Of a stretch of DNA of 64,000 bases, positions 21,433 through 62,096 are shown one piece after another (the first letter of the stretch is position 1; the number at the start of each line of letters is the position of its first letter). Made by a program: the position numbers and the translations under genes. The notes under the pieces are model-generated. The model did no database searches, was not told where the DNA came from, and worked only from the letters and a program-made list of their open reading frames with translations. Origin of the DNA: Candidatus Daviesbacteria bacterium RIFCSPHIGHO2_12_FULL_37_16 (GTDB taxonomy: Bacteria > Patescibacteriota > Microgenomatia > Daviesbacterales > UBA10151); contig MFDF01000008.1 of NCBI GenBank assembly GCA_001776785.1, positions 103,097 to 167,096 on the forward strand, in the 5' to 3' direction.

Positions 21433-22470
21433 GTGTGGAAGAAATATCAAAAACAAAATAAACAGTCCAGGCAAATTAAACTCGCCTTTTTAGCGCTTGG
21501 ATTTCTACTTTTGCTGCTTTTAGTGGCAAAACTTTTTTCTGTATTCTCATCTCTCTTCCAGCCCTTTAATTCAGCTATTGATTCATCTAAAAAATACTCC
21601 TGGGATGGCAGTTCTTCAATTAATGTTCTAATTTATGGTCCCAGGATTTCATTAATAAATTTGCATCCCCAAAACAAAAACATGACTATTCTGCATATCT
21701 CTGATGATGTCTTTATGGAGCTTCCAAAAGGGTATGGCAGCTGGAAAGTAGGAAGTATTTATGATCTTGGTCAGGAGGAAAAACCTCAAATAGGATCTAA
21801 TCTTTTAAAGCTTTCCATCTCAAAATTAGTCGGTCTGCCAATAGATGGACTTATAATTCAAAAAGATTTAAGTCAGCCTTCAGTTGAAGACTTGGTTGGA
21901 GGCTGGCGCAAAAATCCATTTAACCGGTTAACCTTTTTAAGATCAATTTCAACGGATCTAACACCGATAGAATTGTATAAATTTATTAAGTCAAGCTCGT
22001 CTGTCCGTCCTGACCAAATCACATCTTTGAATTTAGCGCAGTCAAATATAACCCGCTCCCAGCTTCTGCCTGATTCCTCCAGGGTGCTTGGGGTAGATAC
22101 AATAAAGCTGGACACTTTTATCAGGGATAATATTTCTGACCCAACTTTATCTGAAGAAGATTTAACATTAGCAATCTTTAATGCAACACCTCATCCGGGT
22201 TTAGCCCAGCAAGCTCAAAGGATTATGACAAACCTGGGGATGAATGTAATTATTTTGGCAAATACAGAAAAAGTATTAGAAAAATCATTGGTATTGTCTA
22301 AAGAAGATAAGTTAAGAGAAACTGTTACCTTTAAAAAATCTGCACAGTTTTTTGCTCCCTCATGTATTAAAAAGACTTGCATAAGTAATGACTCAAAAAT
22401 TGATTCATCCAGAGCCCAAATTACCATAGTCCTGGGTGAGGATTTTTACAATTTATGGTATAGCAAATAA
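21433..22470 (+). CDS. LytR-CpsA-Psr (LCP) family cell-envelope transferase
   Basis: N-terminal TM anchor, NVLIYGPR...MTILHIS core pattern, and a C-terminal LytR_C-like AIFNATPHPGLAQQAQRIMTNLGMNV. Confidence 0.5.
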   Translation: MWKKYQKQNKQSRQIKLAFLALGFLLLLLLVAKLFSVFSSLFQPFNSAIDSSKKYSWDGSSSINVLIYGPRISLINLHPQNKNMTILHISDDVFMELPKGYGSWKVGSIYDLGQEEKPQIGSNLLKLSISKLVGLPIDGLIIQKDLSQPSVEDLVGGWRKNPFNRLTFLRSISTDLTPIELYKFIKSSSSVRPDQITSLNLAQSNITRSQLLPDSSRVLGVDTIKLDTFIRDNISDPTLSEEDLTLAIFNATPHPGLAQQAQRIMTNLGMNVIILANTEKVLEKSLVLSKEDKLRETVTFKKSAQFFAPSCIKKTCISNDSKIDSSRAQITIVLGEDFYNLWYSK

Positions 22471-32292: not shown

Positions 32293-32377
32293 AATCCATC
32301 ATCCTAAACGTTTGTATTTTTTCTATAGCTGACTGGTTGACTTTAGTAAAATCTTCCTTCACTATTATATTAAGACA

Positions 32378-35300: not shown

Positions 35301-35917
35301 GTGGATCTAAAAGGTTTGCAATTCAGGTTCTCAGGGCAGACGGCAAGGTTATTACTACTGCCCCCTGTGAAATTGATAGGTCATTAATCTATCTTGGCGC
35401 CCGGGTCTTCTGTAGGGAGGAAGGTAAATTTGATGTAGAAAAAGTCCAAATAAGAGTCGTTGATGATGTAAAAAACAAAGTTGATGAAACTGTCTCAATT
35501 GACAAAGATGGTGTAGTCAAAGGGCTTAAAACTTCAATCCAGGCAGGCAGAAGGTATGGCCTCTCTATAAAAGCTCCAAAATCTGTCAGAAGAAATGTTT
35601 TCTTCACTGCTCAGGAAGGCACAACTATAGTTTCCAATCCAGACGGCAGCCAATTTATCCTTCCGGTTGGTGATATTGCCCCTGCAATTCAGGCTGATGG
35701 TAAGATAAACACACTTGATAGGGCTGAACTAACCAGGCAATGGAGAATCTTTGGTACTCCAAAAGAGCCCCAATCTGGAGACTTAAAGATAGATACCAAA
35801 GTTAACTCTTTTGACTGGGCTTGTCAGAGGTATGACTTTAACGCTCAAGATGATCCTATTTTGAATGAAGTTGAGGCTACACAATCTGCAAGTATTATGA
35901 GTAATAACTTGCAATGA
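32378..35917 (+). CDS. giant surface protein 2 (paralog) with the following domains: N-terminal signal anchor; FN3-like modules; (PTQA)n linker; two TSP3-like calcium-binding repeats; conserved C-terminal module with dockerin-like segment
   Basis: 1179-aa ORF. Its N-terminal module GRCVVSVEGKKINCEEIPLKL parallels giant 1 (GDCVKLKNGVKVLTCGFVPLKL). The C-terminal ~330 aa align closely with giant 1 (IYLGARVFCREEGKFD..., GDIAPAIQADGKINTLDRAELTRQWRIFG...DTKVNSFDWACQRYDF). Confidence 0.75.
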   Translation: MQEYLEIFKGKKVITSLVVLLFLVISIPLALNLFNSRLKLFSRAALGDPIELLAGRCVVSVEGKKINCEEIPLKLLSPLGPPIQKPPAPQNLVVESSSCEINSPVIKLKWDHVSGVSGYSVIRRWGDNDGIEVFDLDPNSNTFNDSPASDGIVSGTEVKYQVLAGSDIQSDPSNEVTTQVALCGVPSPPPTACNPRPNVIRNLQLLSADRYKVTATVGTNTSTPTNSFTKVKFNSLSNGKIEIGGTPGRAAPFEYGLNGAQSYSFEVKLDRPCQESTTIFEHFDACGSFPDFQGSGAGPTGFGQFPQCQTSTPAPTPTAVPLPTPLPGVTSSTVTSTGDFRLIGSGQCTGGSPTIDLVWDRTDGGPYTIEKTPVPIPGQLAGQLTLRPILSTFGNYIALNTTYSIYIQSVNGPKSDTISIASPATCSGASLIFKNNFSLTSILNILKPFIENTKNIFGSPAYAIDPGDTGPGDLQLGVSGRCDSSFRPYVSVDWNTNGYYYHILRNGSEIAWTPAAMSDYGVQSGQTYTYQLIKTGIDEPASPTQSTSVPTCVAPTQVPTQAPTQAPTQAPTQAPTQVPTQLPTQAPTTVPTSTPTAYYLYPPTTQTVATSNCTDIRTTKVSWDSVTDSGGNHNYTKTFTKAALDQTYPQWIIGAGLDGNKDFPATVTIAGQSYTIQPGVWSSHDDTYLEFYYTGAFRKIHGITADNFTVAGSGTIAVPATITVTGSSLSSYNSTPVPPNTGVDIKYCAAAAPTPQCSDSLDNDSDGKIDSADPGCHTDGNPNNQGSYDPNDNDESNITECNDTIDNDGDGKIDSADPQCHTDGNADNPSSYDPNIPSEGEPPPGNFTVKYRLAETEEGLSSAEFKPYTQEPIITSFILQNIGPGPKQVWVEFVDSNGGSRVENINLTWVEPDPTTDAVSCTFDISKENVKVVIKGTGFTATPGRISVDGKDAEILEWKTDLITALVRKPSLPAGGSKRFAIQVLRADGKVITTAPCEIDRSLIYLGARVFCREEGKFDVEKVQIRVVDDVKNKVDETVSIDKDGVVKGLKTSIQAGRRYGLSIKAPKSVRRNVFFTAQEGTTIVSNPDGSQFILPVGDIAPAIQADGKINTLDRAELTRQWRIFGTPKEPQSGDLKIDTKVNSFDWACQRYDFNAQDDPILNEVEATQSASIMSNNLQ
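34038..34140 (+). repeat. about 8 tandem copies of a 12-bp unit (caagctccaact) encoding (PTQA/V)n
   Basis: The linker sequence ...VAPTQVPTQAPTQAPTQAPTQAPTQVPTQLPTQAPTTVPT...; the nucleotide units are near-identical. Confidence 0.8.
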
Positions 35918-35957
35918 ATAAGGAGAATAATTTAATCTAGAGAAAGTAGGGATAAAA

Positions 35958-36773
35958 ATGGAAGTATCTGCCAAACCATTAATATATGTAACTAAAGATT
36001 CTGAGATAAAACTTGAACCTAAAAGCCTGCTTAAACGCAGCTTCCTGAAGATTCTTTTCATAATTTTGGGTGTCATTATTATCGGTGAACTTATTTGGGG
36101 AGTCCGTTCAATAATCTCCTCGCAAAACGCACTTATTCCGTCTGTTTCTGAACTTTCTGAAGGGTCTATAATAGTTGATTCCCCAAAAGTTAATTATCAG
36201 GTTGGTGAAGCAGTCCCTATAACTATCAGGGTGGCCACAGGAGGAAAATTAACTGATGCTGCAGATCTAATCCTAAAATATGACCCCAGTGTTTTAAGCC
36301 TTGTAAGCTCTGATATAAAAATAGGCCAAATCTACAAAGATTACCCGGTTGCAGATAATGACCAGTCCTTTGGAGAAGTTAAAGTCTCAGGAATTACCCC
36401 TCCTGGTGAAACAGGTTTTGGTGGAATTGGTGAACTAGCCAGTCTTCAGTTTAAAGCCCTATCATCTGGCAAAACAGTAGTTTCTGTAGATTTTCAAAAA
36501 GATTCAACAATAGATTCAAATATTGTAGAAGCAAATACCACTCATGACATGCTGGGGGTAGTTTATAATAAAGAACTTTTTATTGGTTCTTCACAGTCAA
36601 CCGCGGTTGAAAAAGATAACAAAAACCAGTGCCAGGGCTACATTCAGCTTTGTCAGACATCTGAAAACCAAACAGGAAGGCAGTTCTGCCAACAGGGAAG
36701 GATACAAGGCAACCAGTGTAAATTTGATCCAAATCTGACAATCAGCTGTGATGAATGCAGGGTTTCACAATAA
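35958..36773 (+). CDS. cohesin-like domain protein, N-terminally membrane-anchored, with C-terminal Cys-rich module
   Basis: TM LKILFIILGVIIIGELIWGV. Cohesin-like VPITIRVATGG...LILKYDPSVLSL...GELASLQFKALSSGKTVVSVDF. The C-terminus has 7 Cys (CQGYIQLCQTSENQTGRQFCQQGRIQGNQCKFDPNLTISCDEC). Confidence 0.6.
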   Translation: MEVSAKPLIYVTKDSEIKLEPKSLLKRSFLKILFIILGVIIIGELIWGVRSIISSQNALIPSVSELSEGSIIVDSPKVNYQVGEAVPITIRVATGGKLTDAADLILKYDPSVLSLVSSDIKIGQIYKDYPVADNDQSFGEVKVSGITPPGETGFGGIGELASLQFKALSSGKTVVSVDFQKDSTIDSNIVEANTTHDMLGVVYNKELFIGSSQSTAVEKDNKNQCQGYIQLCQTSENQTGRQFCQQGRIQGNQCKFDPNLTISCDECRVSQ

Positions 36774-36822
36774 ATTTTTAGCTGACCTTGACTTTAAACC
36801 TTATTGTGCACACAATAGATAT

Positions 36823-37548
36823 ATGGGTAGATTAAAATACATTTTAATGTCCTTCCTGGCCTTAGTAATATTCTCAAGCCCGGCATTGGCCCAGGCTGCA
36901 ACCCTTTCATTAAATCCTTCCGCAGGTACATTTAATAGGGGTTGTGTTTTAGGGGTCAATATTGAGCTTGATACTCAGGGCGGCCAAACTGATGGTACAG
37001 ATGTGATCCTAATTTTTGATCCCACAAAGCTTTCAGTTAAAACCTCTGATATTACAAATGGCAAAATTTATCAGGACTACCCTGGCAACTCTGTAGATGC
37101 CCAATCCGGCAAACTTTCTATATCGGGTATCTCCTCAGTTTCAGAACCCTTTACAGGCAAAGGCACTTTTGCCACAGTCCAATTTCATGTTTTGGAAAAT
37201 GCCCCAACTGGTGCAACTTTAATCAGGTTTGATTTTGATCCCAATGATAAAACCAAAACTACAGACACCAATGTAGTTGAAAGAGGCACAATAGCTGACC
37301 TGTTAAGTAGTGTAACTGATGGAAATTATACTGTTGGTACTGGTTCTTGTGTAAGCCAGGGTCAGGGCGCTGCTGGCACTACCATTGGGGGGCAGGGTCA
37401 GGTTGGTACAGTTTCTGCTACTCCCCTGCCTACTAAAGTTCCTTTAAAAGAGTTACCACAGGGAGGGATATTTGATAATACAATAATTATTGCAGCAATT
37501 GGTACAGTTTTAACTATTATTGGCATTGCAGGCCTGGCAATGCTGTAA
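36823..37548 (+). CDS. cohesin-like domain protein with cleavable signal peptide, Gly/Thr linker and C-terminal LPQGG + TM anchor
   Basis: Signal peptide MGRLKYILMSFLALVIFSSPALAQA. Cohesin-like GVNIELDTQGG...ILIFDPTKLSV...GTFATVQFHVLENAPTGATLIRFDFDPNDKTKTTDTNVVE. C-terminal KELPQGGIFDNTIIIAAIGTVLTIIGIAGLAML. The ORF track opens at 36748; I prefer the Met at 36823, which avoids overlap with the upstream gene. Confidence 0.6.
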   Translation: MGRLKYILMSFLALVIFSSPALAQAATLSLNPSAGTFNRGCVLGVNIELDTQGGQTDGTDVILIFDPTKLSVKTSDITNGKIYQDYPGNSVDAQSGKLSISGISSVSEPFTGKGTFATVQFHVLENAPTGATLIRFDFDPNDKTKTTDTNVVERGTIADLLSSVTDGNYTVGTGSCVSQGQGAAGTTIGGQGQVGTVSATPLPTKVPLKELPQGGIFDNTIIIAAIGTVLTIIGIAGLAML

Positions 37549-38979: not shown

Positions 38980-39543
38980 ATGGATACAAAGGACAAAAAA
39001 CTTCTCCTTGATGCATTAATTTTGATACTATCTGTTACCTTTGCAGTCTGGACTATTAATTCAGGTTTTATAGATAAAGTATTTGAAACACTCCTACCAG
39101 TTCAGTTTTTAGCAGAATTCTTTGCAGGCATGCTCTTTACCTCTTTTTTGACCACTCCCCTTTCCCTGGCCTTTATTTATGTTTTATCAGAAAATACAAA
39201 CCCAATGGTTATTGCACTTGTTGGTGCTTTAGGGGCTGCAGCTGGGGATTTCTTCATAGTAAAACTTTTTAGGGATTCAATTTTTCAGGATTTCTCCACA
39301 CTCTCCAGAGACTTAAAGTTAAAAAGATTTCTGCATTTTTTCAGGCATTCCCATTTCAACCATTTAGCCCCCCTGATGGGGATGCTGGTTATTGCATCCC
39401 CATTCCCTGATGAAATAGGTTTGATGCTTTTAAGTGCCAGCAAACTCCAATACTCCCAACTTTTTCTGCTAACATATTTATTGAATGCATTGGGAATTTT
39501 TCTTTTTGCCAGTTCTTTTAACCTGCTCATATGGAAAATGTAG
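38980..39543 (+). CDS. hypothetical membrane protein
   Basis: 4-5 hydrophobic helices. Confidence 0.35.
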   Translation: MDTKDKKLLLDALILILSVTFAVWTINSGFIDKVFETLLPVQFLAEFFAGMLFTSFLTTPLSLAFIYVLSENTNPMVIALVGALGAAAGDFFIVKLFRDSIFQDFSTLSRDLKLKRFLHFFRHSHFNHLAPLMGMLVIASPFPDEIGLMLLSASKLQYSQLFLLTYLLNALGIFLFASSFNLLIWKM

Positions 39544-41912
39544 GATTAACATCTGTTCAGGCAAGAGAAAGACTTGCCCAATACGGTCTAAACCAATTGC
39601 CCGGCAAATCCGGGTCTAACATCTTGTTCCTGCTGCTTTCCCAATTTAATAACTTCCTGGTCTGGCTTTTGCTTGCAGCAGCTGGGTTATCTTTTTTTGT
39701 AGGAGACTTTATAGACGGCTTTTTAATTCTGGTTATTCTTCTTTTAAATAGCGCATTAGGTTTTTGGCAGGAATTTAAAGCCTCTAAAGAACTTGAAGCT
39801 TTGCGGGCAATGGAAGTTTCAGTAAGCAGGGTTTTGAGGGATGGTACCCAAATTGAAATTTCCTCATATGAAATTGTCCCGGGTGATGTAGTTATTGTAG
39901 AAAGTGGTGACAAAATCCCTGCTGATGGCCATCTGATTGAATCCTTTGACCTTGCTGCCAATGAAGCGGCATTAACAGGAGAATCACTTCCTGTTGCCAA
40001 AACTGCCTCCAAAGATGATGGGGTTTTATATTTTGGATCAACAGTTTCTTCAGGAAGGGGGAAAATTCTAATTGAACAAACAGGTATAAATACCCGCTTT
40101 GGTAAAATTGCCCTGACACTTTCAAACATTTTAGAAGAACCCACTCCCCTTGAAAACTCCCTAAAAGACCTGGCTTTAAAAATTGGGATTCTGGCAGTAA
40201 TTATCTCCATATTTCTGGCAGCCCTAAGATATTTTCAGGGAGAGCAAATTCTGGAGGTAATATTTACCTCAATCGCCATGATGGTGGCAGCAGTTCCGGA
40301 AGGGCTCCCCGCAGTTATAACAGTCCTTTTAGCTTTAGGTGTCAGAAGAATGTATAAGAAAAAAACAATAGTTAGAAAACTATCCGCAATAGAATCTTTA
40401 GGTGCAACCTCTGTTGTCTTAACAGATAAAACAGGAACCTTAACTAAAAACCAGATGTCTGTTAGAAAAATTTTTACAGATAAGTCAAATCTTTCAGAGA
40501 TGTTAAGAGGCTCTGTTATCTGCAACAGTGCTTCCCTTGTAATGAAAGAGGACTTGCCTGGCCGGCAGGCAGGCCATGGAGGTTATGATATTTTAGGTGA
40601 CACCACAGAAGGTGCTCTATTAATTTATGCAAAAAATAAAGGTTTGGATATAGAAGAAGTCCGTTCTTCTGGAAAGATAGAAATGGAGCTGCCCTTTGAT
40701 TTAAAAAGAAGAAGGATGAGTGTACTTTGGGCTGAAGGAAATAAATTATCACTCTTTTGCAAAGGTGCTCCCGAAGTTATCTTATCTCTTTGTAAGCTTA
40801 CTCCTTCAAAACACAAAGAATTAACTACAATTTTTGAAACTTTTGCCAAAGAAGGATTAAGGGTAATTGCGGTTGCCAAGAGGGATAATTTAGTTAAAGG
40901 TGTAGAAAAAGATTTGGAAAAAAATCTTAAGTTTTTAGGTTTTATAGCTATTGCAGATGCTCCAAGGGAAGAAGCAAGTTTGCAAATTGAAAAATTAACA
41001 AAAGCCGGAATCGCAGTAGTTATGATTACGGGAGACAATGAGTTAACGGCTAAAGCCATAGCGGAAGAGGTTGGTCTTTTAAGGATGGGAGATGAAGTTA
41101 TGACTGGCGCACAGCTCGATGAACTCTCAGATGATAAGCTTCTGGAAAAACTTCCAACCATTAAAGTTTTTGCAAGAGTAGTCCCTGAACACAAACTAAG
41201 GGTTGTTACTGCTTACCAACAGTTAGGAAAAGTTGTGGCAGTCACAGGAGATGGGGTCAATGATGCACTTGCCCTAAAAGCAGCCCATGTTGGCATAGCC
41301 ATGGGAGATACAGGGACTGATGTGGCCAAGCAGGCAGCAGACATAGTTATCCTTGATGATAATCTAACTACTATTGTTGATGCTGTTGAGCAGGGAAGGT
41401 TAATATATTCAAACATTATAAAAACAGTCAAATTTTTAATGACAGGAAATCTTTCTGAAGTTCTGGTTATTGTAGGAGCAGCAGTAATAGGGTTCCCCAC
41501 TCCCCTCCTGCCTGCCCAAATATTGTGGATTAACTTTGTTACAGACGGCTTCCCTGCCCTGGCCTTATCTGCAGATGAAGCCTCAGATCACATTATGAGG
41601 GCAAGCCCAAGAGATCCAAATAAATCTATATTAGATCAAAGCAGTTTGAAATTTATTCTTGGTTTTGGAATTTCCATAGCTGTAATTAATTTAGCTGGTT
41701 TTACTTATCTGTATAACTTTTATAATTTAGATGCTGCCCGCTCATTTGTCTTTACAGGAATAGTTATTACTCAAATGATAATGATTTTTATAATGCGCCG
41801 CCACCACTCAATTTGGTCTAATAAATACTTACTAGCAGCAGTTGGATTTGTCCTTCTAATGCAGCTTGCTATCATAACTATTCCCCAGCTGAGAGTACTT
41901 TTTAGTCTTTGA
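39531..41912 (+). CDS. P-type ATPase, type IIA (Ca2+/cation-transporting)
   Basis: Cation-ATPase N-terminus MENVGLTSVQARERLAQYGLNQLP, phosphorylation site DKTGTLT, hinge TGDGVNDALALKAAHVGIAMG, PEGL motif (AAVPEGLP). Confidence 0.85.
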   Translation: MENVGLTSVQARERLAQYGLNQLPGKSGSNILFLLLSQFNNFLVWLLLAAAGLSFFVGDFIDGFLILVILLLNSALGFWQEFKASKELEALRAMEVSVSRVLRDGTQIEISSYEIVPGDVVIVESGDKIPADGHLIESFDLAANEAALTGESLPVAKTASKDDGVLYFGSTVSSGRGKILIEQTGINTRFGKIALTLSNILEEPTPLENSLKDLALKIGILAVIISIFLAALRYFQGEQILEVIFTSIAMMVAAVPEGLPAVITVLLALGVRRMYKKKTIVRKLSAIESLGATSVVLTDKTGTLTKNQMSVRKIFTDKSNLSEMLRGSVICNSASLVMKEDLPGRQAGHGGYDILGDTTEGALLIYAKNKGLDIEEVRSSGKIEMELPFDLKRRRMSVLWAEGNKLSLFCKGAPEVILSLCKLTPSKHKELTTIFETFAKEGLRVIAVAKRDNLVKGVEKDLEKNLKFLGFIAIADAPREEASLQIEKLTKAGIAVVMITGDNELTAKAIAEEVGLLRMGDEVMTGAQLDELSDDKLLEKLPTIKVFARVVPEHKLRVVTAYQQLGKVVAVTGDGVNDALALKAAHVGIAMGDTGTDVAKQAADIVILDDNLTTIVDAVEQGRLIYSNIIKTVKFLMTGNLSEVLVIVGAAVIGFPTPLLPAQILWINFVTDGFPALALSADEASDHIMRASPRDPNKSILDQSSLKFILGFGISIAVINLAGFTYLYNFYNLDAARSFVFTGIVITQMIMIFIMRRHHSIWSNKYLLAAVGFVLLMQLAIITIPQLRVLFSL

Positions 41913-50785: not shown

Positions 50786-53380
50786 CTACTCTTGTGTAGA
50801 AGATGAGGCATCAGATGTTTTATCTTTAGAAGAAACTACAGTTGCTGCAGCCACCTTCTCCCCTGCCCTAACCCTCATTAAAATAACCCCCTGGGTTTGT
50901 CTTTGCAGGGTTGGTACATCTTTCAGATTAAGTTTTATAAGCTGGCCCTTATTAGATGTCATAACCAAAGTATCCACATCTTTATCTATAATTTCTGCTG
51001 TAACAATCTCTCCTGTTTTATCTGTCACCTGGGCTGCTTTAATCCCAGACCCTCCCCTCCCCTGTCTTTTCCAGGCATTTATCTTAGTCTTTTTACCCAA
51101 TCCATTCTCCATAACCACTAAAAGATCTGAATTTGGATCCTCAACCTTGTTCATAGAAACTACCTCATCAGTCTTAGAGAGTGAAATTCCCCTAACCCCT
51201 GAAGTATCCCTGTGGGTTGGCCTGACTAAATGCTCTCCAAACCTAATGGATTGTCCTTTTCTTGAAACAATTATCATGTCATCTTTACCAGTTGTTGGTA
51301 CAACCCAGGATAATGTATCTCCGCTGTCAAGCTTAATAGAAATAAGTCCATTTTTTCTGATATTTGCATATTCTTCAACAGGAGTCTTTTTAACATTTCC
51401 CATCTTTGTTCCCATAAATAAAAATTTAACAGTATCCTTAGACCTTAATGTTAAAATTGCAGTAACTTTTTCTCCCTGTTCTACATTAATTAAATTAACA
51501 ATGGCCTGCCCCTTAGCTATCCTGGAAACCTCAGGGATTTCCCAGACTTTTATCTGAAATGCCCTACCCCTGTCAGTAAAAAATAATAGGTTATCTAAAG
51601 TCTTAGTATAGAAAATATGTGAAACTGCATCCTCCTCTTTTGTGGTGATGCCTGAAACTCCTTTGCCTCCCCTATTTTGGGTCCTGAAACTCATAGGAGA
51701 CTGCCTTTTTACATACCCACCCTCTGTTACTGTAACTATAGTTACTTCATCAGCAACTAAATCCTCTTCAGAAAATTCTCCAACCTTTTGTTTGTATACC
51801 CTGGTTCTCCTGTCATCAGCATATTTGTCCTTAACTTTTAAAATCTCCTCTTTTATTACTTTTAAAATTTTCTCAGGATGTGCCAGTAAATCCTCTAAGT
51901 AGGCAATCATCTGTCTTACCAGTTTTAACTCATCTTCAATCTTTTGTCTCTCCAGTGCAGCCAGTCTCCTCAGCTGCATGTCCAAAATTGCAACAGCCTG
52001 GATCTCTGAAAGCTTAAACTTCTTCATCAAATTTTCCCTGGCTGCATCAGAGTCTTTGGATTTTCTGATCGTGTCTATAACCTCATCAATATTATCAACA
52101 GCTATCTTTAATCCCTCTAAAATATGCTCTCTGGCTTTATATTGCGCCAGTTCAAACTCAGATCTTCTTCTCACAACCACCTGTCTGTGATGAATAAACT
52201 CTTCTAAAATCCTTTTAAGAGTCATTAAGCCAGGCGCCCCATCTGAGAGTGCCACCATATTTACATTAAATACAGACTGCATTGCAGTGTGTTTATAGAG
52301 ATTGTTTAAAATAGATTGTGGTTTGCCATCCCTTTTTAATTCAACCACAATCCTCATACCTCTTCTGTCTGATTCATCCCTTAAATCTGAAATTCCTTCA
52401 ATCTTTTTCTCCTTCACTAAATCAGCAATCTTAGCAATTAAAACAGCTTTGTTAACCTGATAAGGCAGTTCTGTAACAATAATGTCAAACCTTCCGCCCT
52501 TTGTTTCTTCAATCTCAGCCTTTGCTCTCATCACAATCCTGCCTTTACCTGTAGCATAAGCAGCCTGTATCTCAGTTGCATCATAAATAGATGCCCCTGT
52601 TGGGAAATCAGGTCCTTTAATAAACTTCATCAACTCCTCCACAGAAGCTTCTGAATAAAATAAATTTGGATCCCTGAAAGTCTCAGTTGTTTGTCCTAAC
52701 TTTGCCTCAATCTCACCTTCTCCATCTGATACCTTTGATACTTTTCCTTCCTTTACAACCTTTTCTTTAAATGGATGTTCAATCATATAAATTAAAGCAT
52801 CAGAAATTTCTCCTAAATTATGGGGAGGGATTTGGGTTGCCATACCAACAGCAATACCCGCTGCGCCATTTAGTAAAAGATTTGGGATAAGAGAAGGAAG
52901 CCAAATAGGTTCCTGAGCAGTACCTGAATAGTTATCAATAAAATCAACAGTTTCTTTATTAATATCCCGCAAAAGTTCATCAGATACAGCAGATAATCTG
53001 GCTTCTGTGTACCTCATGGCTGCAGGTGAATCTCCATCTACAGACCCAAAGTTGCCCTGACCATCAACCAGCGGATATCTCATTGAAAAATCCTGAGCCA
53101 TTCTAACCATAGCGTCATAAATAGAAGAGTCTCCATGAGGATGGAAATTTTTCATAACTTCACCCACAACAGCAGCAGATTTTTGATATCTGGCAGCGTG
53201 GTGAAGGCCTTGCTGGTGCATGGCATAAACTATTCTTCGCTGTACAGGTTTTAATCCATCCCTAACATCTGGCAGTGCGCGCGAAACAATAACGCTCATC
53301 GCATAATCTAAATATGAGCGCTGCATCTCCTCAATGATAGGTGCTGGTTGTATTCTGCCTATGCCTGTATCTTCTGCCAT
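50786..53380 (-). CDS. gyrA: DNA gyrase subunit A
   Basis: [22 protein letters not shown] (active-site Tyr region) and the GyrA-box [10 protein letters not shown] in the C-terminal beta-pinwheel. Confidence 0.9.
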
Positions 53381-53450: not shown

Positions 53451-54083
53451 TTACTGCTTTCCCGCTAAAGGGTTTTTGTTTCTTATTTCCTTATTTAAAA
53501 TGGCCCCGTTCTCATCCATCTGGTAAACATAAACCTCCCCAATCCCAAACTCTAACTTTGCAATATCCTCTTCAGGTAAATCCTCAATGTATTTAATTAA
53601 AGCCCTTAAACTATTCCCTGAAGATACTAAAATTACATCCCTGTCATCCATTAAATCCTTTAAAATACGCTCCTTGTAAAAAGGGATAATCCTTTCATAA
53701 ACCTGTTTTAAAGACTCACCATGTGGGGTTGGATAATCCCAGCTTCTTCTAAGTTTTTGAAACTCTATATCTCCAATCTCTTTTTGGACTTCCCACTTAT
53801 TTTTGCCTGTATAATCACCATAATCCCGCTCATTCACTGCAGCATCTTCTATTACTTGTATATTTTCCTGATTTAAGACTTTTAGAATTACATCCAAAGT
53901 TTTTGTAGACCTTTTTAGTGTTGCAACATAAGCTTTATCAAAATTAATATCCCCTAAAGCTTCACCAGCCCTTTTTGCATCTTCAATCCCCTTTTGGGTT
54001 AAATCCACATCAGTCCAGCCCGTCCATTTACCTAATTTATTCCACTCAGATTCGCCATGTCTTACTAAAACCAGTCTGGACAT
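53451..54083 (-). CDS. gpmA: 2,3-bisphosphoglycerate-dependent phosphoglycerate mutase (short form)
   Basis: LVLVRHGESEWNKLGKWTGWTDVDLT and the catalytic His. 210 aa. Confidence 0.8.
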   Translation of the reverse strand: MSRLVLVRHGESEWNKLGKWTGWTDVDLTQKGIEDAKRAGEALGDINFDKAYVATLKRSTKTLDVILKVLNQENIQVIEDAAVNERDYGDYTGKNKWEVQKEIGDIEFQKLRRSWDYPTPHGESLKQVYERIIPFYKERILKDLMDDRDVILVSSGNSLRALIKYIEDLPEEDIAKLEFGIGEVYVYQMDENGAILNKEIRNKNPLAGKQ

Positions 54084-55357
54084 TAACTCTTCAAACCTTT
54101 CTTAGTGTAATTACTGTTTAATTCCTCAATCCTTAGTAGTTCATTGTACTTAGCTATTCTGTCAGTCCTGGAAAGTGATCCAGTTTTTATTTGTCCGGTT
54201 CCTAGTCCAACAGACAGGTGAGCAATAGTTGTATCCTCTGTTTCACCTGACCTATGGGAAATTATTGCTTTCCATCCTGCGTTATGTGCCATCTCAACAG
54301 CCTTGATAGTTTCAGTTAAAGTCCCAATCTGGTTTAATTTAATTAATATTGCATTTGCAGTTTTTAACTTAATTCCCTTTTCTAAAAATTTGATATTTGT
54401 CACAAATAAGTCATCCCCAATAATCTGTATATTTTCTCCAAGTTCACTGGTTAATTTTACCCAGCCATCCCAATCCTCCTGGTTTAAGCCATCTTCAACA
54501 GAAACTATTGGGTATTTCTGGGAAAGCCCCTTAAGCCACTCAATCATTTGTTCTGTATCAAGCTCTTTGCCCTCTGCCTTTAAGATATATTTCCCATCCT
54601 TAAAAAACTCAGATGCAGCCACATCCAGTGCAAATACAATATCCTCACCCAATTTAAACCCTGCTTTCTTAACTGCCTCTGAAATAAACTCTAAAGGTTC
54701 TTCATTTCCGGAAACTTTTGGGGCATAGCCCCCCTCATCCCCAACATTTATTGAAAAACCCTTTTCATCTAATAATTCTCCCAGGCTATGAAATACCTCT
54801 GACCCCATCTGTATAGCTTCTGAAATGCTTTGTGCGCCAATAGGTAAGATCATATATTCCTGGATATCTGTAGCCCAATTTGCATGTCTTCCTCCGTTCA
54901 TAACATTCATCATTGGCAAAGGTAAAACTGGCTCAACTTTTTTTTGTGCCAGTGAATTTATATACATAAACAATGGGAGCTTTTGGAAGTTTGCTGCGGC
55001 ATATGCAACTGCTAAAGAAACAGAAAGTATTGCATTTGCCCCAAGATTAGATTTATTTTCTGTTCCATCAAGATCAATCAATGCCTGGTCAATCTGCTGC
55101 TGATTAGTCACCTCAAAACCATTTAACAATTTATCAATTTGACCATTTACATTTTCTACAGCCTTTAAAACTGACTTGCCGCCAAACTTTTTTGGATCCT
55201 GATCCCTAAGCTCTAAAGCTTCAAATTTGCCTGTGGATGCACCTGATGGCACAGCAGCCCTTCCTATTGTCCCATCTTCTAAAATCACATCTGACTCAAT
55301 TGTAGGATTACCTCTTGAGTCTAAAATCTGCCTTGCATGGATCCTTTTTATCTTCAC
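54083..55357 (-). CDS. eno: enolase
   Basis: [21 protein letters not shown]..., 424 aa. Confidence 0.9.
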
Positions 55358-55366
55358 AAAGTAATC

Positions 55367-55908
55367 TTACTTGGAATTTTTTGCATCATCAAGTGCCATC
55401 TCTACTAACTTTTTTGTTAAATCTGGAAATGAAATCCCTGCAGTAATTTCAACTCCTGGTAAAAATCTTTCAATAAAAAGTTTAGTATCAGCTTTTAATA
55501 CTGATGGAAAACCGAATTCTATAATTTCTCGTATTAGCTTGACACCATTAAGGTGGGAAGCTAAAATCTTCCACTTTGATGTAGGTATATTATTTGACTC
55601 ACAAAACTTCTTAAAAGAAATCTTATACCAGCCTTTTTTGAACGATCTCCAACCCCCTCCTATATATGGTTTGTTTAAAGTTTTTAAAAATTTATGAAGT
55701 TTTCCTCCCTCGCCCTCTTCACCATGAATTACAGGAAATATAACGTCAAAATTTGCAGATACATTTTTTAATTCCTGATATCCTTTCCTTAAATCAAATA
55801 TTTTTACTTTAAAATTATTTTCCTCTAAAGCTTTTTGACTTCCTTTGCAGAAATTAAGGATATTTTTCTCTCAGAAGAATCCCCTCCGCTGATTATTAAA
55901 ACCCTCAT
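55367..55908 (-). pseudogene. ddl: D-alanine--D-alanine ligase, frameshifted and C-terminally truncated
   Basis: Minus strand ATG at 55908 gives MRVLIISGGDSSERKISLISAKEVKKL then a stop. The +2 frame continues ENNFKVKIFDL...FDVIFPVIHGEEGEGGKLHKFLKTLNKPYIGGG...FGFPSVLKADTKLFIERFLPGVEITAGI and stops at 55367. That is roughly half of Ddl, missing the central ATP-grasp segment and the C-terminal catalytic region. Confidence 0.55.
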
Positions 55909-55946
55909 GAGCTTTTAATTATTAAAAACTTTGGTAAGATAGTCAA

Positions 55947-56450
55947 ATGCAAAAAATTAAAAATTATTTAGAGAAAACAAAATCTTACTCAACCTTGAGG
56001 TTTATTTTGGAGATGACTTTTTTGGCATTTTTGTTAAAAATCCTTCTTTCTTTAGTTGTGGGAATTATTTTTACAATGCTTAATATACCCAATGATCCTA
56101 ACTTAAGCTTTGAAACAGAACTTTTAAAATTTAACCCAATTTTAATTTTAATTTTTGTGGTGTTCTTTGCCTCATTTGAAACCATCACCTCCCAGTGGTT
56201 TATCCTCTGGCTCTCTTCAAAATTTACTAAAAGTATTTTTACTCAAATTATGGTTTCATCAACAGTCTTTGGAATCCTGCACTTTGACCCAGCTTTTTCA
56301 ATAATAGTTATCCCTATTGGAATGATTTTGGCCTGGAGCTTTTTAATTTACAGAAAAAAATCTCTCTGGTCTGCCCTTTGGGTCACAACAGCAATCCATA
56401 TCCTCCACAACCTGGCAGCAGCTTATCTTCTATATTTATCTATTATTTAA
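55947..56450 (+). CDS. CPBP-family intramembrane metalloprotease (CAAX-protease/Abi-like)
   Basis: Polytopic. FxxxH (GILHF) and HxxxN (HILHNLAA) motifs in the last two helices. Confidence 0.45.
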   Translation: MQKIKNYLEKTKSYSTLRFILEMTFLAFLLKILLSLVVGIIFTMLNIPNDPNLSFETELLKFNPILILIFVVFFASFETITSQWFILWLSSKFTKSIFTQIMVSSTVFGILHFDPAFSIIVIPIGMILAWSFLIYRKKSLWSALWVTTAIHILHNLAAAYLLYLSII

Positions 56451-57783
56451 AAACTCTCTCCAAAGCTTCATTGAATTTTCTCCCCCTGTCAAATTCATTT
56501 TGGAAAAGGTTAAATGATGTAGCCCCTGGAGAAAATAAAACTGTATCTCCCATTTTGACCTCAAGTCTTAGGTCTTTTAATAATTTAGTTAAGTCATCAT
56601 AGTTGCTTCTTAAAATATCCCTGTGTTTAATAAATTTTCTTAACTCATCTGTAGCATCACCCTCTAAAAAATAAACAGCTTTTGCTGATCTGTCTATCTG
56701 ATGGGCCATCTGATCATAATTAAGACCTTTGTTCATTCCCCCGCATATCAAAATTGCATTATTAAAAGTTTTTAGAGCAGATATGGCAGCATCAGGAGTT
56801 GTAGCAGCGCTGTCATTATAGATTTTAACTCCGTTAAAAATCTTAATTAGCTGGGTCCTAAACTCTACCCCTTCAAATTCTTCAAATGCAGTGATAATTT
56901 TTTCTTTGGGAATATCAAATTTCTTAGAAACTGCAAATGCAGCAGCAAAATTTTCTAAGTTATGTTCCCCCCTTAGCTTTGGTTTAAAACCTTTTGGTAA
57001 ATCTTTTTTTGAGTATTTAATTATTTTTCCATTAAAACCCTTTAAAAACTTGGGATTATTAACTGTTTTACTGTCTGCATTAATGAAAAGAAAATCTTTC
57101 TCAGTTTGATACTTCGCGATTATTCTTTTCGCACTAATATATTCATCCATATCTTTGTAATAATTTAAATGGTCTGGAAATATATTTGTAATAATTGCAA
57201 AATAAGGAGAGACTTTTTTATCTTCAAATGCTTCCAGCTGAAAAGATGAAATTTCCAAAATAACCAGGGTTTTTGGGTTAATTTTATCTAAACTATCCAA
57301 AACAGACTTCCCTATATTCCCAGCCAAAATTACATTTGTCTTGTCTGATGACTGACGTCTGATTACTGACGACTCTTTCAGCGCCTCATATATTAATGAT
57401 GCAGTTGTAGATTTTCCTTTAGTTCCTGTTACTCCAATTATCTGTTTAGGATTTACAAACTCTAAAAAAATTCCTATGTCTGTTTGAATCTCTTTCCCTT
57501 GTTTTTTTGCATATTCTAAAAATTCATTCCCGGGTTTTATTGCCTGGTTTCTAATTATCAAATCAGCCCAGTCAATATCCCCCATCCTGTGTCCCTCTAA
57601 AACATACTCAATCTCACTAAATTCAAAAAGTTTTTCTAAAGAGGGTTTTAAAACCTTTGCATCCTTTAAATCTGTAACTCTAACCCTGGCTCCAGCTTTG
57701 GCAAAAAATTTGGCAGCCCCCACTCCCCCATCATTCAATCCTAATCCCAAAATTAATACTTTTTTATCTTTATAATTCTTCAT
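56443..57783 (-). CDS. murD: UDP-N-acetylmuramoylalanine--D-glutamate ligase
   Basis: KVLILGLGLNDGGVGAAKFFAKAGARV Rossmann N-domain, P-loop GVTGTKGKSTTASLI, Mur ligase C-domain. Confidence 0.8.
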   Translation of the reverse strand: MKNYKDKKVLILGLGLNDGGVGAAKFFAKAGARVRVTDLKDAKVLKPSLEKLFEFSEIEYVLEGHRMGDIDWADLIIRNQAIKPGNEFLEYAKKQGKEIQTDIGIFLEFVNPKQIIGVTGTKGKSTTASLIYEALKESSVIRRQSSDKTNVILAGNIGKSVLDSLDKINPKTLVILEISSFQLEAFEDKKVSPYFAIITNIFPDHLNYYKDMDEYISAKRIIAKYQTEKDFLFINADSKTVNNPKFLKGFNGKIIKYSKKDLPKGFKPKLRGEHNLENFAAAFAVSKKFDIPKEKIITAFEEFEGVEFRTQLIKIFNGVKIYNDSAATTPDAAISALKTFNNAILICGGMNKGLNYDQMAHQIDRSAKAVYFLEGDATDELRKFIKHRDILRSNYDDLTKLLKDLRLEVKMGDTVLFSPGATSFNLFQNEFDRGRKFNEALERVFK

Positions 57784-58336
57784 TCTTTAAATATTCAGCT
57801 AACTTCTCTAATGCTATTCTTCTTGGTGAAGATATAAAATAATCCTTTACTTCCATCTCTGCTCTAGTTTGCTTAAATCCCTCTGGAATAAAAATTGAAT
57901 CAAATCCAAATCCATTCTCACCTCTGGGTTTGTCTGCAAGATTACCCTTAATCACACCCTGAAAGATATGAACTTTTACTCCATCATGATAACCCAAAGA
58001 TGTAGTAGCTGAAGCAGCTCTATTTCTGTTATCCAAAAGCTCACAAATCTTTTTATTGCCAATCTCCTGATGAAAATATTTAATAAAAGGACCTGGCAGA
58101 GCCCCAAATTCTTCAATAACTATAGATGTATCCTCAACCAAAACTGGAGCTTTTAATAGCTTAAATGCCTCACTAACTTTATGCTCTATTACTTCTTTTG
58201 GGTCCAGAGACTGAATTTCATGAAGTTCTAAGCTTTTATGGGAAACAGGATAACTAAGCATCTTACTCACCTGATCTGCCTTTCCCTGGTGGCTAGTTAT
58301 AAGTGTAATTTTTTTATGCTTTAAATCTTTAATCAT
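57770..58336 (-). CDS. non-canonical purine NTP pyrophosphatase (RdgB/HAM1 family)
   Basis: VLVEDTSIVIEEFGALPGP...GFGFDSIFIPEGFKQTRAEM...ISSPRRIAL, the ITPase motifs. Confidence 0.7.
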   Translation of the reverse strand: MIKDLKHKKITLITSHQGKADQVSKMLSYPVSHKSLELHEIQSLDPKEVIEHKVSEAFKLLKAPVLVEDTSIVIEEFGALPGPFIKYFHQEIGNKKICELLDNRNRAASATTSLGYHDGVKVHIFQGVIKGNLADKPRGENGFGFDSIFIPEGFKQTRAEMEVKDYFISSPRRIALEKLAEYLKNEEL

Positions 58337-58342
58337 TAATCC

Positions 58343-59650
58343 TCAATCCTCAATCACTCTTCTACCAATCTTATCAACATCTCCAGCTCCCATGAAAAAT
58401 ACTACATCCCCACCCCTTATTGCTACTTTTAAAAACCCCTCTACCTCATCTTTGGGTCCCAAGTATGACACAGTGGCCTTCCCAATTGCATCTACTAACT
58501 CTTTAGAAGATGTTAACCCTATATCTTTTTCTCTTGATGGATAGATATCAATAATAAAAGTCTGGTCAATAGGAAGATCCTGAAAAACTTTCACAAAGTC
58601 ATCAAACAAAGCTTTAGTCCTGGTAAACATATGTGGCTCATAAAGTAAAACTATCCTTTTTTCTTTAAATTTTTCTCTGGCTGCCTCCATTGTTTTTCTA
58701 ATCTCAGTTGGATGGTGACCAAAATCAGAATATATTTGTGCTCCCCTAAATTCCCCAATAAACTCAAATCTTCTGCCCAAACCTGCATAAGAAGATAAAC
58801 TTTGGGAAATTGTCTGGGGATCTAAACTTAATGATAAACCTAACTGGAATACAGCACTAGCATTTAATTTATTAAAATCCCCTGGAACCTTTAGATTTAA
58901 ATTTAGTATGTGTTTTGAATAATCTATTACTGTCACAGGAGAGTCTTTCATCACATCTTTAATAATGTCTGCAACATTAGGGTCTTCTAAATTTGCAATA
59001 ATAATTTTTTTAGTTTGAGCTAAAAAATTCCTGAAAGATTTTTTGACATCCTCTATATCTTTAAAATATTCTGGATGGTCCATTTCAATATTGGTAATAA
59101 TTGTGATATCTGGTTTGTAAAACTGGAAATTATCATTATATTCATCTGCCTCTGTTATAAAAAATTTGGATTTACCAACCCTGAAATTTTTGCCCCAACT
59201 GGGAACTATTGCCCCAAGTTCTACAGTTGGGTCCAAATTTGCATCCCCTAAAAGTTTGGCACTCATTGCAGTCACAGTAGACTTACCATGAGTCCCACAA
59301 ACTGCAATCAAAAATTTATCTTTGTGCAAATACTCCCCCATAAACTCCTGCCAGGTTAATACAGGTATATTTAATTTCTTTGCTGCTAAAAGTTCTGGAT
59401 TATTGGCATCCAAAGAAAAAATTGCTGGAGTCACAATAAGTAAATCCACTTTATTAGAAGATTCACTCCCGTAGTGGCCACTCAAATGCTCAGGACTATG
59501 GCCTTTAAACTTGACACATCCGATGTGTAAAGTAAATTCATTATCAGGCTCAAGGTCACAGCCGCTCACTTCAAATCCCTGAGCTTGAGCTATTGCTGCT
59601 GCACCAGATGCCCCACTCCCCCCAATTCCCAAAAAATGTATCTTCTTCAT
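58343..59650 (-). CDS. murC: UDP-N-acetylmuramate--L-alanine ligase
   Basis: IHFLGIGGSGASGAAAIAQAQGFEVSGCDL and P-loop AVCGTHGKSTVTAM. Confidence 0.8.
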   Translation of the reverse strand: MKKIHFLGIGGSGASGAAAIAQAQGFEVSGCDLEPDNEFTLHIGCVKFKGHSPEHLSGHYGSESSNKVDLLIVTPAIFSLDANNPELLAAKKLNIPVLTWQEFMGEYLHKDKFLIAVCGTHGKSTVTAMSAKLLGDANLDPTVELGAIVPSWGKNFRVGKSKFFITEADEYNDNFQFYKPDITIITNIEMDHPEYFKDIEDVKKSFRNFLAQTKKIIIANLEDPNVADIIKDVMKDSPVTVIDYSKHILNLNLKVPGDFNKLNASAVFQLGLSLSLDPQTISQSLSSYAGLGRRFEFIGEFRGAQIYSDFGHHPTEIRKTMEAAREKFKEKRIVLLYEPHMFTRTKALFDDFVKVFQDLPIDQTFIIDIYPSREKDIGLTSSKELVDAIGKATVSYLGPKDEVEGFLKVAIRGGDVVFFMGAGDVDKIGRRVIED

Positions 59651-59656
59651 GAAGTA

Positions 59657-59662
59657 ATTATA
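59657..59662 (-). promoter_or_regulatory. perfect -10 hexamer TATAAT 6 nt upstream of the murC ATG (likely leaderless transcript)
   Basis: The minus strand reads ...TACTATAAT TACTTC ATG, i.e. an extended -10-like TAnTATAAT with no room for an SD. Confidence 0.35.
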
Positions 59663-59718
59663 GTATTATTTAAAGGTCATTGCGAGCGTAGCGAAGCAAT
59701 CTAGCAACAAAATAAGTC

Positions 59719-60009
59719 CTATTTTTTCCAAGGATTACCAGGAGGTTCTTCACTTAACAATCCAGCCGCTTCTTCCTTATTAAGAATTTTCCAATCTACA
59801 TCTAAAAAATCTTTCGGTATCATACGTGAGCGTGTTACACCTACAAAACTGAGGATTCTATCAATATCACCGAAAAATTTAGTTACATTTTCTCCCTCTA
59901 AACATGCAATTTCACCATCTTCATATTGGTAAATTACTCGCACTAAACTTTCAGTAGGTTTTAGATCTCTGTGAGGTATTTCTCTACCTGTATTTTCTTT
60001 TTCTTGCAT
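59719..60009 (-). CDS. hypothetical protein
   Basis: 96-aa ORF between gyrB and murC. Confidence 0.3.
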   Translation of the reverse strand: MQEKENTGREIPHRDLKPTESLVRVIYQYEDGEIACLEGENVTKFFGDIDRILSFVGVTRSRMIPKDFLDVDWKILNKEEAAGLLSEEPPGNPWKK

Positions 60010-60047
60010 AACTCAATCCTGTTGAACAGATATTATTTCTAATTTAT

Positions 60048-62096
<2,049 letters not shown>

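What the first reader, a model, noticed from the sequence alone, without database searches (positions are those of the whole stretch)
55367..55908. Decayed D-Ala-D-Ala ligase gene inside an otherwise intact murC-murD neighbourhood
The ddl reading frame starts well (MRVLIISGGDSSERKISLISAKEV) but hits a stop after 27 codons. It continues in another frame through the conserved IFPVIHGEEGEGG and FPSVLKA...GVEITAGI segments, then ends before the catalytic C-terminal third and about 10 bp before eno. The total is roughly half of normal length. Three readings are possible: a sequencing or assembly frameshift; a true pseudogene, implying another ddl or imported D-Ala-D-Ala; or an organism remodelling peptidoglycan synthesis. 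murC, murD and an LCP transferase are intact.
Basis: seen in the sequence. Interest (0 to 1): 0.55.

Follow-up and report, generated by a model that had tools for sequence, protein, structure and literature searches.

The report
Genuine decayed ddl pseudogene in Daviesbacteria
The cell-wall gene ddl (D-alanine-D-alanine ligase) of this uncultured groundwater bacterium (Candidatus Daviesbacteria) is a real dead gene, broken by one frameshift and two internal deletions, and the same broken copy turns up in every independent assembly of the organism, so it is not a sequencing error; whether the cell gets D-Ala-D-Ala from elsewhere is still open.

Summary
On the minus strand, 55908..55367 is a remnant of ddl with three lesions. 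(1) One A is missing from an A-run (55839-55830), which puts a stop after 27 codons. (2) 29 codons, including the GGSS ATP-binding loop, are deleted in frame. (3) 97 codons, covering almost the whole catalytic ATP-grasp part, are deleted in frame. The last ~22 codons and the native stop survive, 9 nt before eno.

The 621-bp region is base-for-base identical in six contigs from different assemblies. An antisense ORF that spans both deletion junctions is deposited identically in four NCBI records and appears in 39 collection blocks, against 40 for MurD. A sequencing or assembly artefact is therefore excluded.

The remnant sits where about 26 related species carry an intact ~300-aa ddl (gyrB-murC-murI-murD-alr-ddl-gyrA). 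In this genome murI and alr are also absent from the cluster, while murC and murD are intact. All 24 family-conserved residues that remain are unchanged, so the decay is recent.

No second ddl is in the window. The rest of the genome could not be searched.

Verdict: an ordinary but well-supported pseudogene of moderate interest. It would matter more if the whole genome proves to lack Ddl, Alr and MurI.

The parts
55825..55908 (-). 5' fragment of ddl: ATG, 26 native codons, then Leu and TAG in the shifted frame
   Evidence: The fragment is 73-88% identical to residues 1-26 of intact Daviesbacteria Ddl.
55830..55839 (-). Frameshift site GTCAAAAAGC. The A5 run is one A short compared with the single-frame reading EVKKALEEN.
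   Evidence: Intact homologues read ..AKAVKKALEENG.. in one frame.
55367..55831 (-). Downstream ddl frame: 154 codons plus TAA, with no usable start codon. It holds the rest of the N-terminal domain, an 18-residue piece of the central domain and the last ~22 residues.
55481..55498 (-). Junction of deletion 1. 29 codons (87 nt) are lost between SVLKA and DTKLFIERF, which removes the GGSS(R/K)E loop.
55430..55447 (-). Junction of deletion 2. 97 codons (291 nt) are lost between EIT and AGISFP, which removes the WFDYxxKY, RxDF and LExNTIPG regions.
55371..55697 (+). Spurious 108-aa antisense ORF lying over the pseudogene. Public records annotate it as a hypothetical protein. It is useful as a marker because it spans both deletion junctions.
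   Evidence: It has no Pfam hit.
55918..55946 (-). Promoter-like site TTGACT-17-AATAAT just upstream of the former ddl start. It may now drive eno.
   Evidence: The number of such sites in the region is not above chance, so this is an inference only.
56443..57783 (-). murD, intact
   Evidence: TIGR01087 scores 343.1 bits against a cut-off of 211.95. Its divergence from relatives is normal.
58343..59650 (-). murC, intact
   Evidence: TIGR01082 scores 366.8 bits against a cut-off of 335.1. Its divergence from relatives is normal.
55947..56450 (+). Rce1-like/CPBP membrane protease gene lying between murD and the ddl remnant. Relatives have no such gene at this position.
   Evidence: Pfam PF02517 E=1.2e-5. 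No hit in any of the 80 related loci.
54083..55357 (-). eno (enolase), starting 9 nt after the ddl stop. Together with gpmA (53451-54083) it occupies the slot where relatives have alr or go straight to gyrA.
   Evidence: TIGR01060 scores 642.5 bits. No eno hit in any of the 80 related loci.

Best explanation
This is a genuine, recently formed ddl pseudogene that is fixed in the sampled population. It lies at the ancestral ddl position of a Candidatus Daviesbacteria genome.

Three independent lesions disable it:
- Loss of one A from an A-run, which gives a stop at codon 28.
- A 29-codon in-frame deletion that removes the glycine-rich ATP-binding loop.
- A 97-codon in-frame deletion that removes almost all of the catalytic ATP-grasp region.

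Both deletions lie between short direct repeats that intact homologues carry in the same codon phase (TTAAA(A/T), encoding LK; GGAAT(A/T), encoding GI). They most likely arose by slipped-strand or microhomology-mediated deletion, which also explains why they are in frame without any need for selection.

No D-Ala-D-Ala ligase can be made from this locus. The remaining DNA probably persists only as the leader or promoter region of eno.

Shown: the lesions, their reality, the orthologous position, and the loss of the catalytic parts. Inferred: the deletion mechanism, the recency, and the present role of the DNA.
For: Anatomy.

Homology and loss of function:
- Only the N-terminal Pfam domain is found and there is no PF07478 hit, whereas full-length relatives carry PF07478.
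- TIGR01205 scores 93.1 bits against a cut-off of 245.65 and matches only profile positions 1-154 of 318.
- 21 of the 45 columns that are >=95% conserved in 80 intact Ddl proteins are deleted.

Not an artefact:
- The 621-bp region is identical in L001-L004, L012 and L013, which come from JGI, NCBI and three ENA assemblies.
- The junction-spanning ORF is deposited identically in four NCBI records.
- That ORF is in 39 blocks and 24 contigs, against 40 blocks for MurD.
- Assembly-specific frameshifts in other genes of the same organism (L003, L008) are not shared between assemblies.

Orthologous position: the cluster gyrB-murC-(murI)-murD-(alr)-ddl-gyrA holds an intact ddl in about 26 species.

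Recency:
- All 24 retained conserved residues are unchanged.
- The remnant's divergence relative to GyrA is within the range of intact genes.
- There is no stop in the 154 downstream codons.

Direct repeats sit at both deletion boundaries in intact homologues.
Against: - No closely related strain with an intact copy exists in the databases (best hit 56% identity). The ancestral sequence, the exact repeats and the order of the lesions are therefore inferred.
- Perfect retention of conserved residues and an open downstream frame would also fit continued selection on a shortened product.
- There are no expression or read-level data.
Confidence: 0.9

Rival explanations
1. Consequence A, which goes beyond the best explanation: the genome has no functional Ddl at all. 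The organism either obtains D-Ala-D-Ala (or complete muropeptides) from a host or the surrounding community, or it builds a changed stem peptide, while keeping MurC and MurD.
For: - alr and murI, which accompany ddl in most relatives, are also missing from this cluster and from the 64-kb window.
- The family-type ddl is single-copy: the 80 best genome loci come from 80 different assemblies.
- None of those loci belongs to this species.
- None of the 120 best Ddl homologues shows this organism's sampling signature of 18-26 contigs.
- There is no second ddl in the window or in the ~14 kb of flanking sequence that was read.
- The broken gene is the only form found in all the assemblies, so the loss is tolerated.
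Against: - Only about 78 kb of a roughly 1-Mb genome was seen.
- alr or murI are not adjacent to ddl in several relatives either (L021, L032 and L035).
- The species' own locus was not among the 80 loci kept, so its presence in the genome collection is unverified.
- The Alr search was uninformative.
- Intact murC and murD with normal divergence argue that a normal pathway is still in use.
Confidence: 0.45
2. Consequence B: a second, unlinked and probably divergent ddl (or an equivalent ATP-grasp ligase) elsewhere in the genome made this copy redundant, so its decay was neutral.
For: - Loss of an otherwise essential gene is explained most simply by redundancy.
- murC and murD are intact and evolve normally, so D-Ala-D-Ala is presumably still needed.
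- Most of the genome was not searched.
Against: - The clade has one ddl per genome.
- No candidate with this organism's sampling signature appears among the best 120 homologues.
- These genomes are small and streamlined and rarely keep paralogues (general knowledge).
Confidence: 0.4
3. Sequencing or assembly artefact: the real gene is a complete single-frame ddl.
For: The frameshift lies in a homopolymer.
Against: - The sequence is identical in six contigs from different assemblies and in four NCBI records.
- The A-run is only 5 nt long.
- Correcting the frameshift still leaves 126 codons missing.
- The junction-spanning ORF is found in 39 of about 40 blocks.
Confidence: 0.02
4. Programmed -1 ribosomal frameshift at C-AAA-AAG that yields a 180-aa shortened protein with a new, non-ligase role.
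For: - AAA-AAG is a known shift-prone lysine pair (general knowledge).
- Both deletions are in frame.
- The downstream frame is open.
- All 24 retained conserved residues are unchanged.
Against: - The heptamer is imperfect (C instead of A at the first position).
- There is no significant downstream structure (z=-1.48).
- Every homologue is a single ORF.
- The in-frame deletions are explained by codon-phased repeats.
- The product would lack every ATP-grasp catalytic element.
Confidence: 0.03

Closest known systems
D-alanine-D-alanine ligase (Ddl, ATP-grasp, EC 6.3.2.4) of Candidatus Daviesbacteria/Microgenomates, ~295-310 aa (e.g. P0001, P0020, L029)
   Same: The N-terminal domain is 50-57% identical by local BLASTP and 61-67% over aligned columns. 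All 24 conserved residues that are retained are unchanged. The genomic position between murD and gyrA is the same.
   Different: It has a frameshift at codon 27 and lacks residues 134-162 and 181-277. There is no PF07478 domain and the score is below every NCBIfam cut-off. It is a relic, not a member with activity.
Cell-wall gene pseudogenes in reduced genomes of host-dependent bacteria (general knowledge, not tested here)
   Same: A biosynthetic gene is inactivated by small indels and deletions while its neighbours stay intact, and the inactive form is fixed in the population.
   Different: Candidate Phyla Radiation genomes are usually described as streamlined with few pseudogenes, and this clade otherwise keeps ddl (intact in all 80 loci compared, apart from L081, whose copy lacks the first 43 codons). 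Whether the pathway as a whole has been abandoned is unknown.
dnaX-type programmed -1 frameshift sites (A AAA AAG)
   Same: An AAA-AAG lysine pair sits at the point where the frame changes.
   Different: The first base of the heptamer is C. There is no stimulatory structure and the site is not conserved in homologues. The product would be catalytically dead.

Membership tests
D-alanine-D-alanine ligase (functional Ddl) | N-terminal Ddl domain (PF01820) | tested here: met
   E=1.3e-18, 68.1 bits against a cut-off of 34.6.
D-alanine-D-alanine ligase (functional Ddl) | C-terminal ATP-grasp domain (PF07478) | tested here: not met
   No hit even at E<=1. The domain is present in the full-length relatives.
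D-alanine-D-alanine ligase (functional Ddl) | One uninterrupted reading frame of about 300 codons | tested here: not met
   There is a stop after 27 codons, the remainder is in another frame without a start codon, and only 180 codons remain in all.
D-alanine-D-alanine ligase (functional Ddl) | Conserved ATP- and substrate-binding motifs (GGSS loop, WFDYxxKY, RxDF, LExNTIPG) | tested here: not met
   21 of the 45 columns that are >=95% conserved are deleted, and these motifs are among them.
D-alanine-D-alanine ligase (functional Ddl) | Curated family score (NCBIfam TIGR01205 / NF002378) | tested here: not met
   93.1 against 245.65 bits and 86.8 against 243 bits; only profile positions 1-154 of 318 are matched. 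Note that the intact relative P0020 is also slightly below the cut-off (219 against 243 bits) but covers the whole profile.
Pseudogene (relic of ddl) | Clear homology to a functional gene at the orthologous position | tested here: met
Pseudogene (relic of ddl) | The disabling lesions are real and not artefacts | tested here: met
   Identical in six contigs and four NCBI records; found in 39 blocks.
Pseudogene (relic of ddl) | No functional product is made | not testable with these tools
   This needs proteomics, ribosome profiling or a complementation assay.
Programmed -1 frameshift gene | Slippery heptamer X XXY YYZ with a stimulatory element, conserved among homologues | tested here: not met
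   The site is C AAA AAG only; folding gives z=-1.48; homologues are single ORFs.

The most novel reading that the evidence does not exclude
This Daviesbacteria population has lost the whole D-amino-acid branch of peptidoglycan precursor synthesis (Ddl decayed; Alr and MurI gone from the conserved cluster) yet keeps MurC and MurD. It would therefore have to import D-Ala-D-Ala and D-Glu, or muropeptide fragments, from a host or from neighbouring cells. That would be a concrete, testable metabolic dependency for a Candidate Phyla Radiation bacterium.
Probability: 0.3. Interest if true: 0.6.

Novelty: new member of a known kind. Interest (0 to 1): 0.3.

Why it matters
By itself this is an ordinary pseudogene, and public records mis-annotate it as an antisense hypothetical protein. 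It matters for three reasons.

- It is a cleanly documented case of recent gene decay in a lineage usually described as streamlined. The lesion mechanism can be read off directly: deletions between codon-phased short repeats.
- It was recovered unchanged in many independent assemblies of the organism.
- If the rest of the genome also lacks Ddl, Alr and MurI, it identifies a specific nutrient (D-Ala-D-Ala or D-amino acids) that this uncultured bacterium must take from partners. That is useful for cultivation attempts and for understanding the dependence of Candidate Phyla Radiation bacteria on other cells.

Tried and rejected
- Second ddl in the window: tblastn with four intact Ddl proteins and a profile HMM against all six-frame ORFs with filters off found only the remnant.
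The species' own remnant locus was not among the best 80, so the negative result is weak.
- alr and murI: tblastn against the window found no hit. A database search with a Daviesbacteria Alr gave 5248 hits, and none of the 120 shown carries this organism's sampling signature, so it is uninformative.
- Reading beyond the window: 10 kb to the left and 3.8 kb to the right hold no peptidoglycan genes.
- Programmed frameshift: the site is imperfect and no structure was found. Rejected.
- Alternative genetic code or readthrough: the stop is TAG and more stops follow in that frame. Rejected.
- Promoter scan: a good-looking site lies upstream of the old start, but the count in the region is no higher than in shuffled sequence.
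- Literature: three full-text searches found nothing on ddl loss in Daviesbacteria or the Candidate Phyla Radiation, or on these bins.
- dN/dS was not attempted. The nearest intact homologue is only about 56% identical, so synonymous sites are saturated.

Full report
**What is in the sequence**

The minus strand carries an ATG at 55908. It is followed by MRVLIISGGDSSERKISLISAKEVKKL and a TAG at 55827-55825. A second frame starts at 55831 and runs for 154 codons (ALEENNFKV...IFPVIHGEEGEGG...FPSVLKADTKLFIERFLPGVEITAGISFPDLTKKLVEMALDDAKNSK) to TAA at 55369-55367. Nine nt further on is the GTG start of eno at 55357. One additional A in the run GTCAAAAAGC (55839-55830) would merge the two frames into a 180-codon reading.

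The second frame has no ATG, GTG or TTG until 9 codons before its end. For that reason the ORF list shows nothing on this strand apart from the 27-codon piece.

**Identity**

- The joined 180-aa reading matches the Pfam N-terminal Ddl domain (E=1.3e-18) but not the C-terminal ATP-grasp domain PF07478.
- It matches 37 solved Ddl/Van ligases, and only through about the first 140 residues.
- Its best database relatives are ~295-310-aa proteins of Candidatus Daviesbacteria (E down to 7e-62, 50-57% identity). Essentially all of them carry both Pfam domains.
- Against NCBIfam it scores 93.1 bits for TIGR01205 (cut-off 245.65) and covers only profile positions 1-154 of 318.

**Anatomy of the damage**

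I aligned the remnant to intact relatives and placed its three pieces in an alignment of 80 full-length Ddl proteins. Besides the frameshift there are two internal deletions: residues 134-162 (29 codons) and 181-277 (97 codons) of a 293-aa reference.

- The first deletion removes the GGSS(R/K)E loop.
- The second removes the WFDYxxKY, RxDF and LExNTIPG regions.
- Of the 45 alignment columns that are at least 95% conserved, 21 are deleted.
- The last ~22 residues and the native stop are still there.

It is hollowed out from the inside. 180 + 29 + 97 = 306 codons, which is the normal family length.

**How the deletions arose (inference)**

In intact homologues the left and right boundaries of each deleted block carry the same short sequence in the same codon phase.

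- Deletion 1: TTAAAA.. (LK[AST]S) and CTTAAATC (LKS).
- Deletion 2: GGAATA ((V)GI) and GGAATA ((A)GI).

Slipped-strand or microhomology-mediated deletion between such repeats gives exactly the junctions seen here: SVLKA|DTKLF at 55498-55481 and EIT|AGISFP at 55447-55430. It also leaves the frame intact automatically, so the in-frame state does not call for selection.

**Artefact or real**

- The exact MurD protein of the window is indexed in 40 blocks of the public collection. Four loci were returned, from a JGI metagenome, NCBI GCA_000991895.1 and two ENA assemblies.
- The 621 bp from 55340 to 55960 are identical in all four, and in two further ENA contigs.
- A 108-aa antisense ORF (55371-55697, plus strand) spans both deletion junctions. 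Its exact sequence is indexed in 39 blocks and 24 contigs. It is deposited as EKD90581.1 (ACD_30C00112G0022), KKQ10558.1, KKQ15301.1 and OGE17181.1. To my knowledge, not checked here, these accession series belong to three separate studies of the Rifle aquifer.
- As a control, the ERZ4903137 assembly has split genes elsewhere in the same organism: a T2SSE ATPase in L003 and a P-type ATPase in L008. No other assembly shares those splits. That is what assembly- or strain-specific frameshifts look like, and the ddl lesions behave differently.

A sequencing or assembly error is excluded for practical purposes. Repairing the frameshift would in any case not restore a ligase.

**Orthologous position**

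In about 26 Daviesbacteria-type loci the order is gyrB - murC - murI (opposite strand) - (ham1 or a His-phosphatase gene) - murD - alr - ddl - gyrA. alr lies directly before or after ddl in most of them, and ddl is intact in all.

The window reads:

- gyrB (60048-62069)
- a 96-aa ORF
- murC
- ham1
- murD
- an Rce1-like/CPBP gene on the other strand
- the ddl remnant
- eno
- gpmA
- gyrA (50786-53380)

The remnant is therefore the ancestral ddl, decayed in place. In the same cluster murI and alr are absent, and neither is anywhere in the 64 kb. The eno-gpmA pair and the CPBP gene have no counterpart in any of the 80 loci. The locus has been rearranged as well as eroded.

**State of the neighbours**

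MurC (366.8 bits against 335.1) and MurD (343.1 bits against 211.95) pass the NCBIfam equivalog cut-offs. Their divergence from relatives, scaled to GyrA divergence, is unremarkable: residuals of -0.006 and -0.020, inside the range of other genomes. ORF 21433-22470 has only the LytR_C accessory domain.

**Age**

- All 24 conserved columns still covered by the remnant keep the family residue.
- The remnant's divergence relative to GyrA (residual -0.049, and that with part of the tail misaligned) lies within the spread of intact genes, -0.072 to +0.048.
- The 154-codon frame has no stop although the genome is 63% A+T.

The inactivation is recent compared with the roughly 40% protein divergence from the nearest known relatives. 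The same facts would also fit continued selection on a shortened product. I rate that unlikely, for these reasons:

- The shift site is imperfect (C AAA AAG).
- No stimulatory structure is present (z=-1.48).
- No homologue uses a frameshift.
- The product would lack every catalytic element.

**Is there another ddl?**

- None is in the window or in about 14 kb of adjoining sequence.
None of the loci is from this species. The species' own locus was not among the 80 kept, so I cannot show that the genome is in that collection.
- Proteins of this organism have a distinctive sampling signature: 18-26 contigs, longest 219,945 bp. None of the 120 best Ddl hits has it.
- A search for its Alr was swamped by 5248 hits and is uninformative.

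The question remains open. I put roughly equal weight on 'no Ddl at all, supply from outside or an altered wall' and on 'an unlinked, divergent ligase'.

**Comparison with what is known, and novelty**

The locus is a relic of a Daviesbacteria-type Ddl. It fails every defining test of a functional member: frame, ATP-grasp domain, motifs and family score. A biosynthetic pseudogene in a small genome is a known kind of thing. This one is unannotated as such, and public records instead carry an antisense 'hypothetical protein'.

What is somewhat unusual is the combination of four things: a lineage thought to hold few pseudogenes; the loss of a gene that is normally essential; the simultaneous absence of alr and murI from a conserved cluster; and intact murC and murD.

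Literature searches found nothing on this.

**Verdict**

The pseudogene reading is supported at high confidence, and the artefact and programmed-frameshift readings are rejected. Interest is moderate to low as it stands. It would be higher if whole-genome scans show that the D-amino-acid branch is really gone.

Noticed in passing
window 55371-55697 (+): A 108-aa ORF antisense to the ddl remnant is deposited as a hypothetical protein in four NCBI records (EKD90581.1, KKQ10558.1, KKQ15301.1, OGE17181.1). It has no Pfam hit and is almost certainly a gene-calling artefact over the pseudogene.
   Followed up: yes
window 53451-62069, compared with L005 and L014-L083: The conserved Daviesbacteria cluster gyrB-murC-murI-murD-alr-ddl-gyrA lacks murI and alr in this genome. 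It has gained an Rce1-like/CPBP gene (55947-56450) and eno-gpmA (53451-55357), and none of the 80 related loci has eno here.
   Followed up: partly
L081 about 5700-6756 (CAYSAI010000005.1): Another species has a ddl that lacks the first 43 codons, in the middle of a 74-kb contig. The sequence before it is GC-rich and looks tRNA-like. It may be a second, independent case of ddl damage, or a chimeric contig.
   Followed up: partly
L003 3127-4836 and L008 13574-15955 (both from ENA ERZ4903137): In this one assembly a T2SSE ATPase gene (98+436 aa instead of 569) and a P-type ATPase gene (173+543 aa instead of 793; window 39531-41912) are split. Other assemblies of the same organism have them whole. 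These are strain- or assembly-specific frameshifts.
   Followed up: no
It has no catalytic LytR_cpsA_psr domain and no NCBIfam hit.
   Followed up: partly
L005 484-3753: The gyrB of a related Daviesbacteria genome carries an intein (1089 aa, PF14890). The window's gyrB (60048-62069, 673 aa) does not.
   Followed up: no
window 28774-37548: Two very large ORFs (1172 and 1179 aa) have no Pfam hit. They are followed by two cohesin-domain proteins, a phage-type integrase and a holin-like gene. L006 has a similar cohesin-integrase group next to gyrA.
   Followed up: no
P0020 (intact relative): Intact Daviesbacteria Ddl proteins fall just below the NCBIfam cut-offs (219 against 243 bits), which may be why NCBI labels them 'ATP-grasp domain-containing protein'. 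Pathway surveys that rely on annotation names could undercount ddl in this clade.
   Followed up: no
P0110 (155 aa), P0064 (189 aa), P0046 (185 aa): Short Ddl-like proteins in other metagenomes end soon after the N-terminal domain, some with aberrant tails. They may be contig-end fragments or further damaged copies.
   Followed up: no
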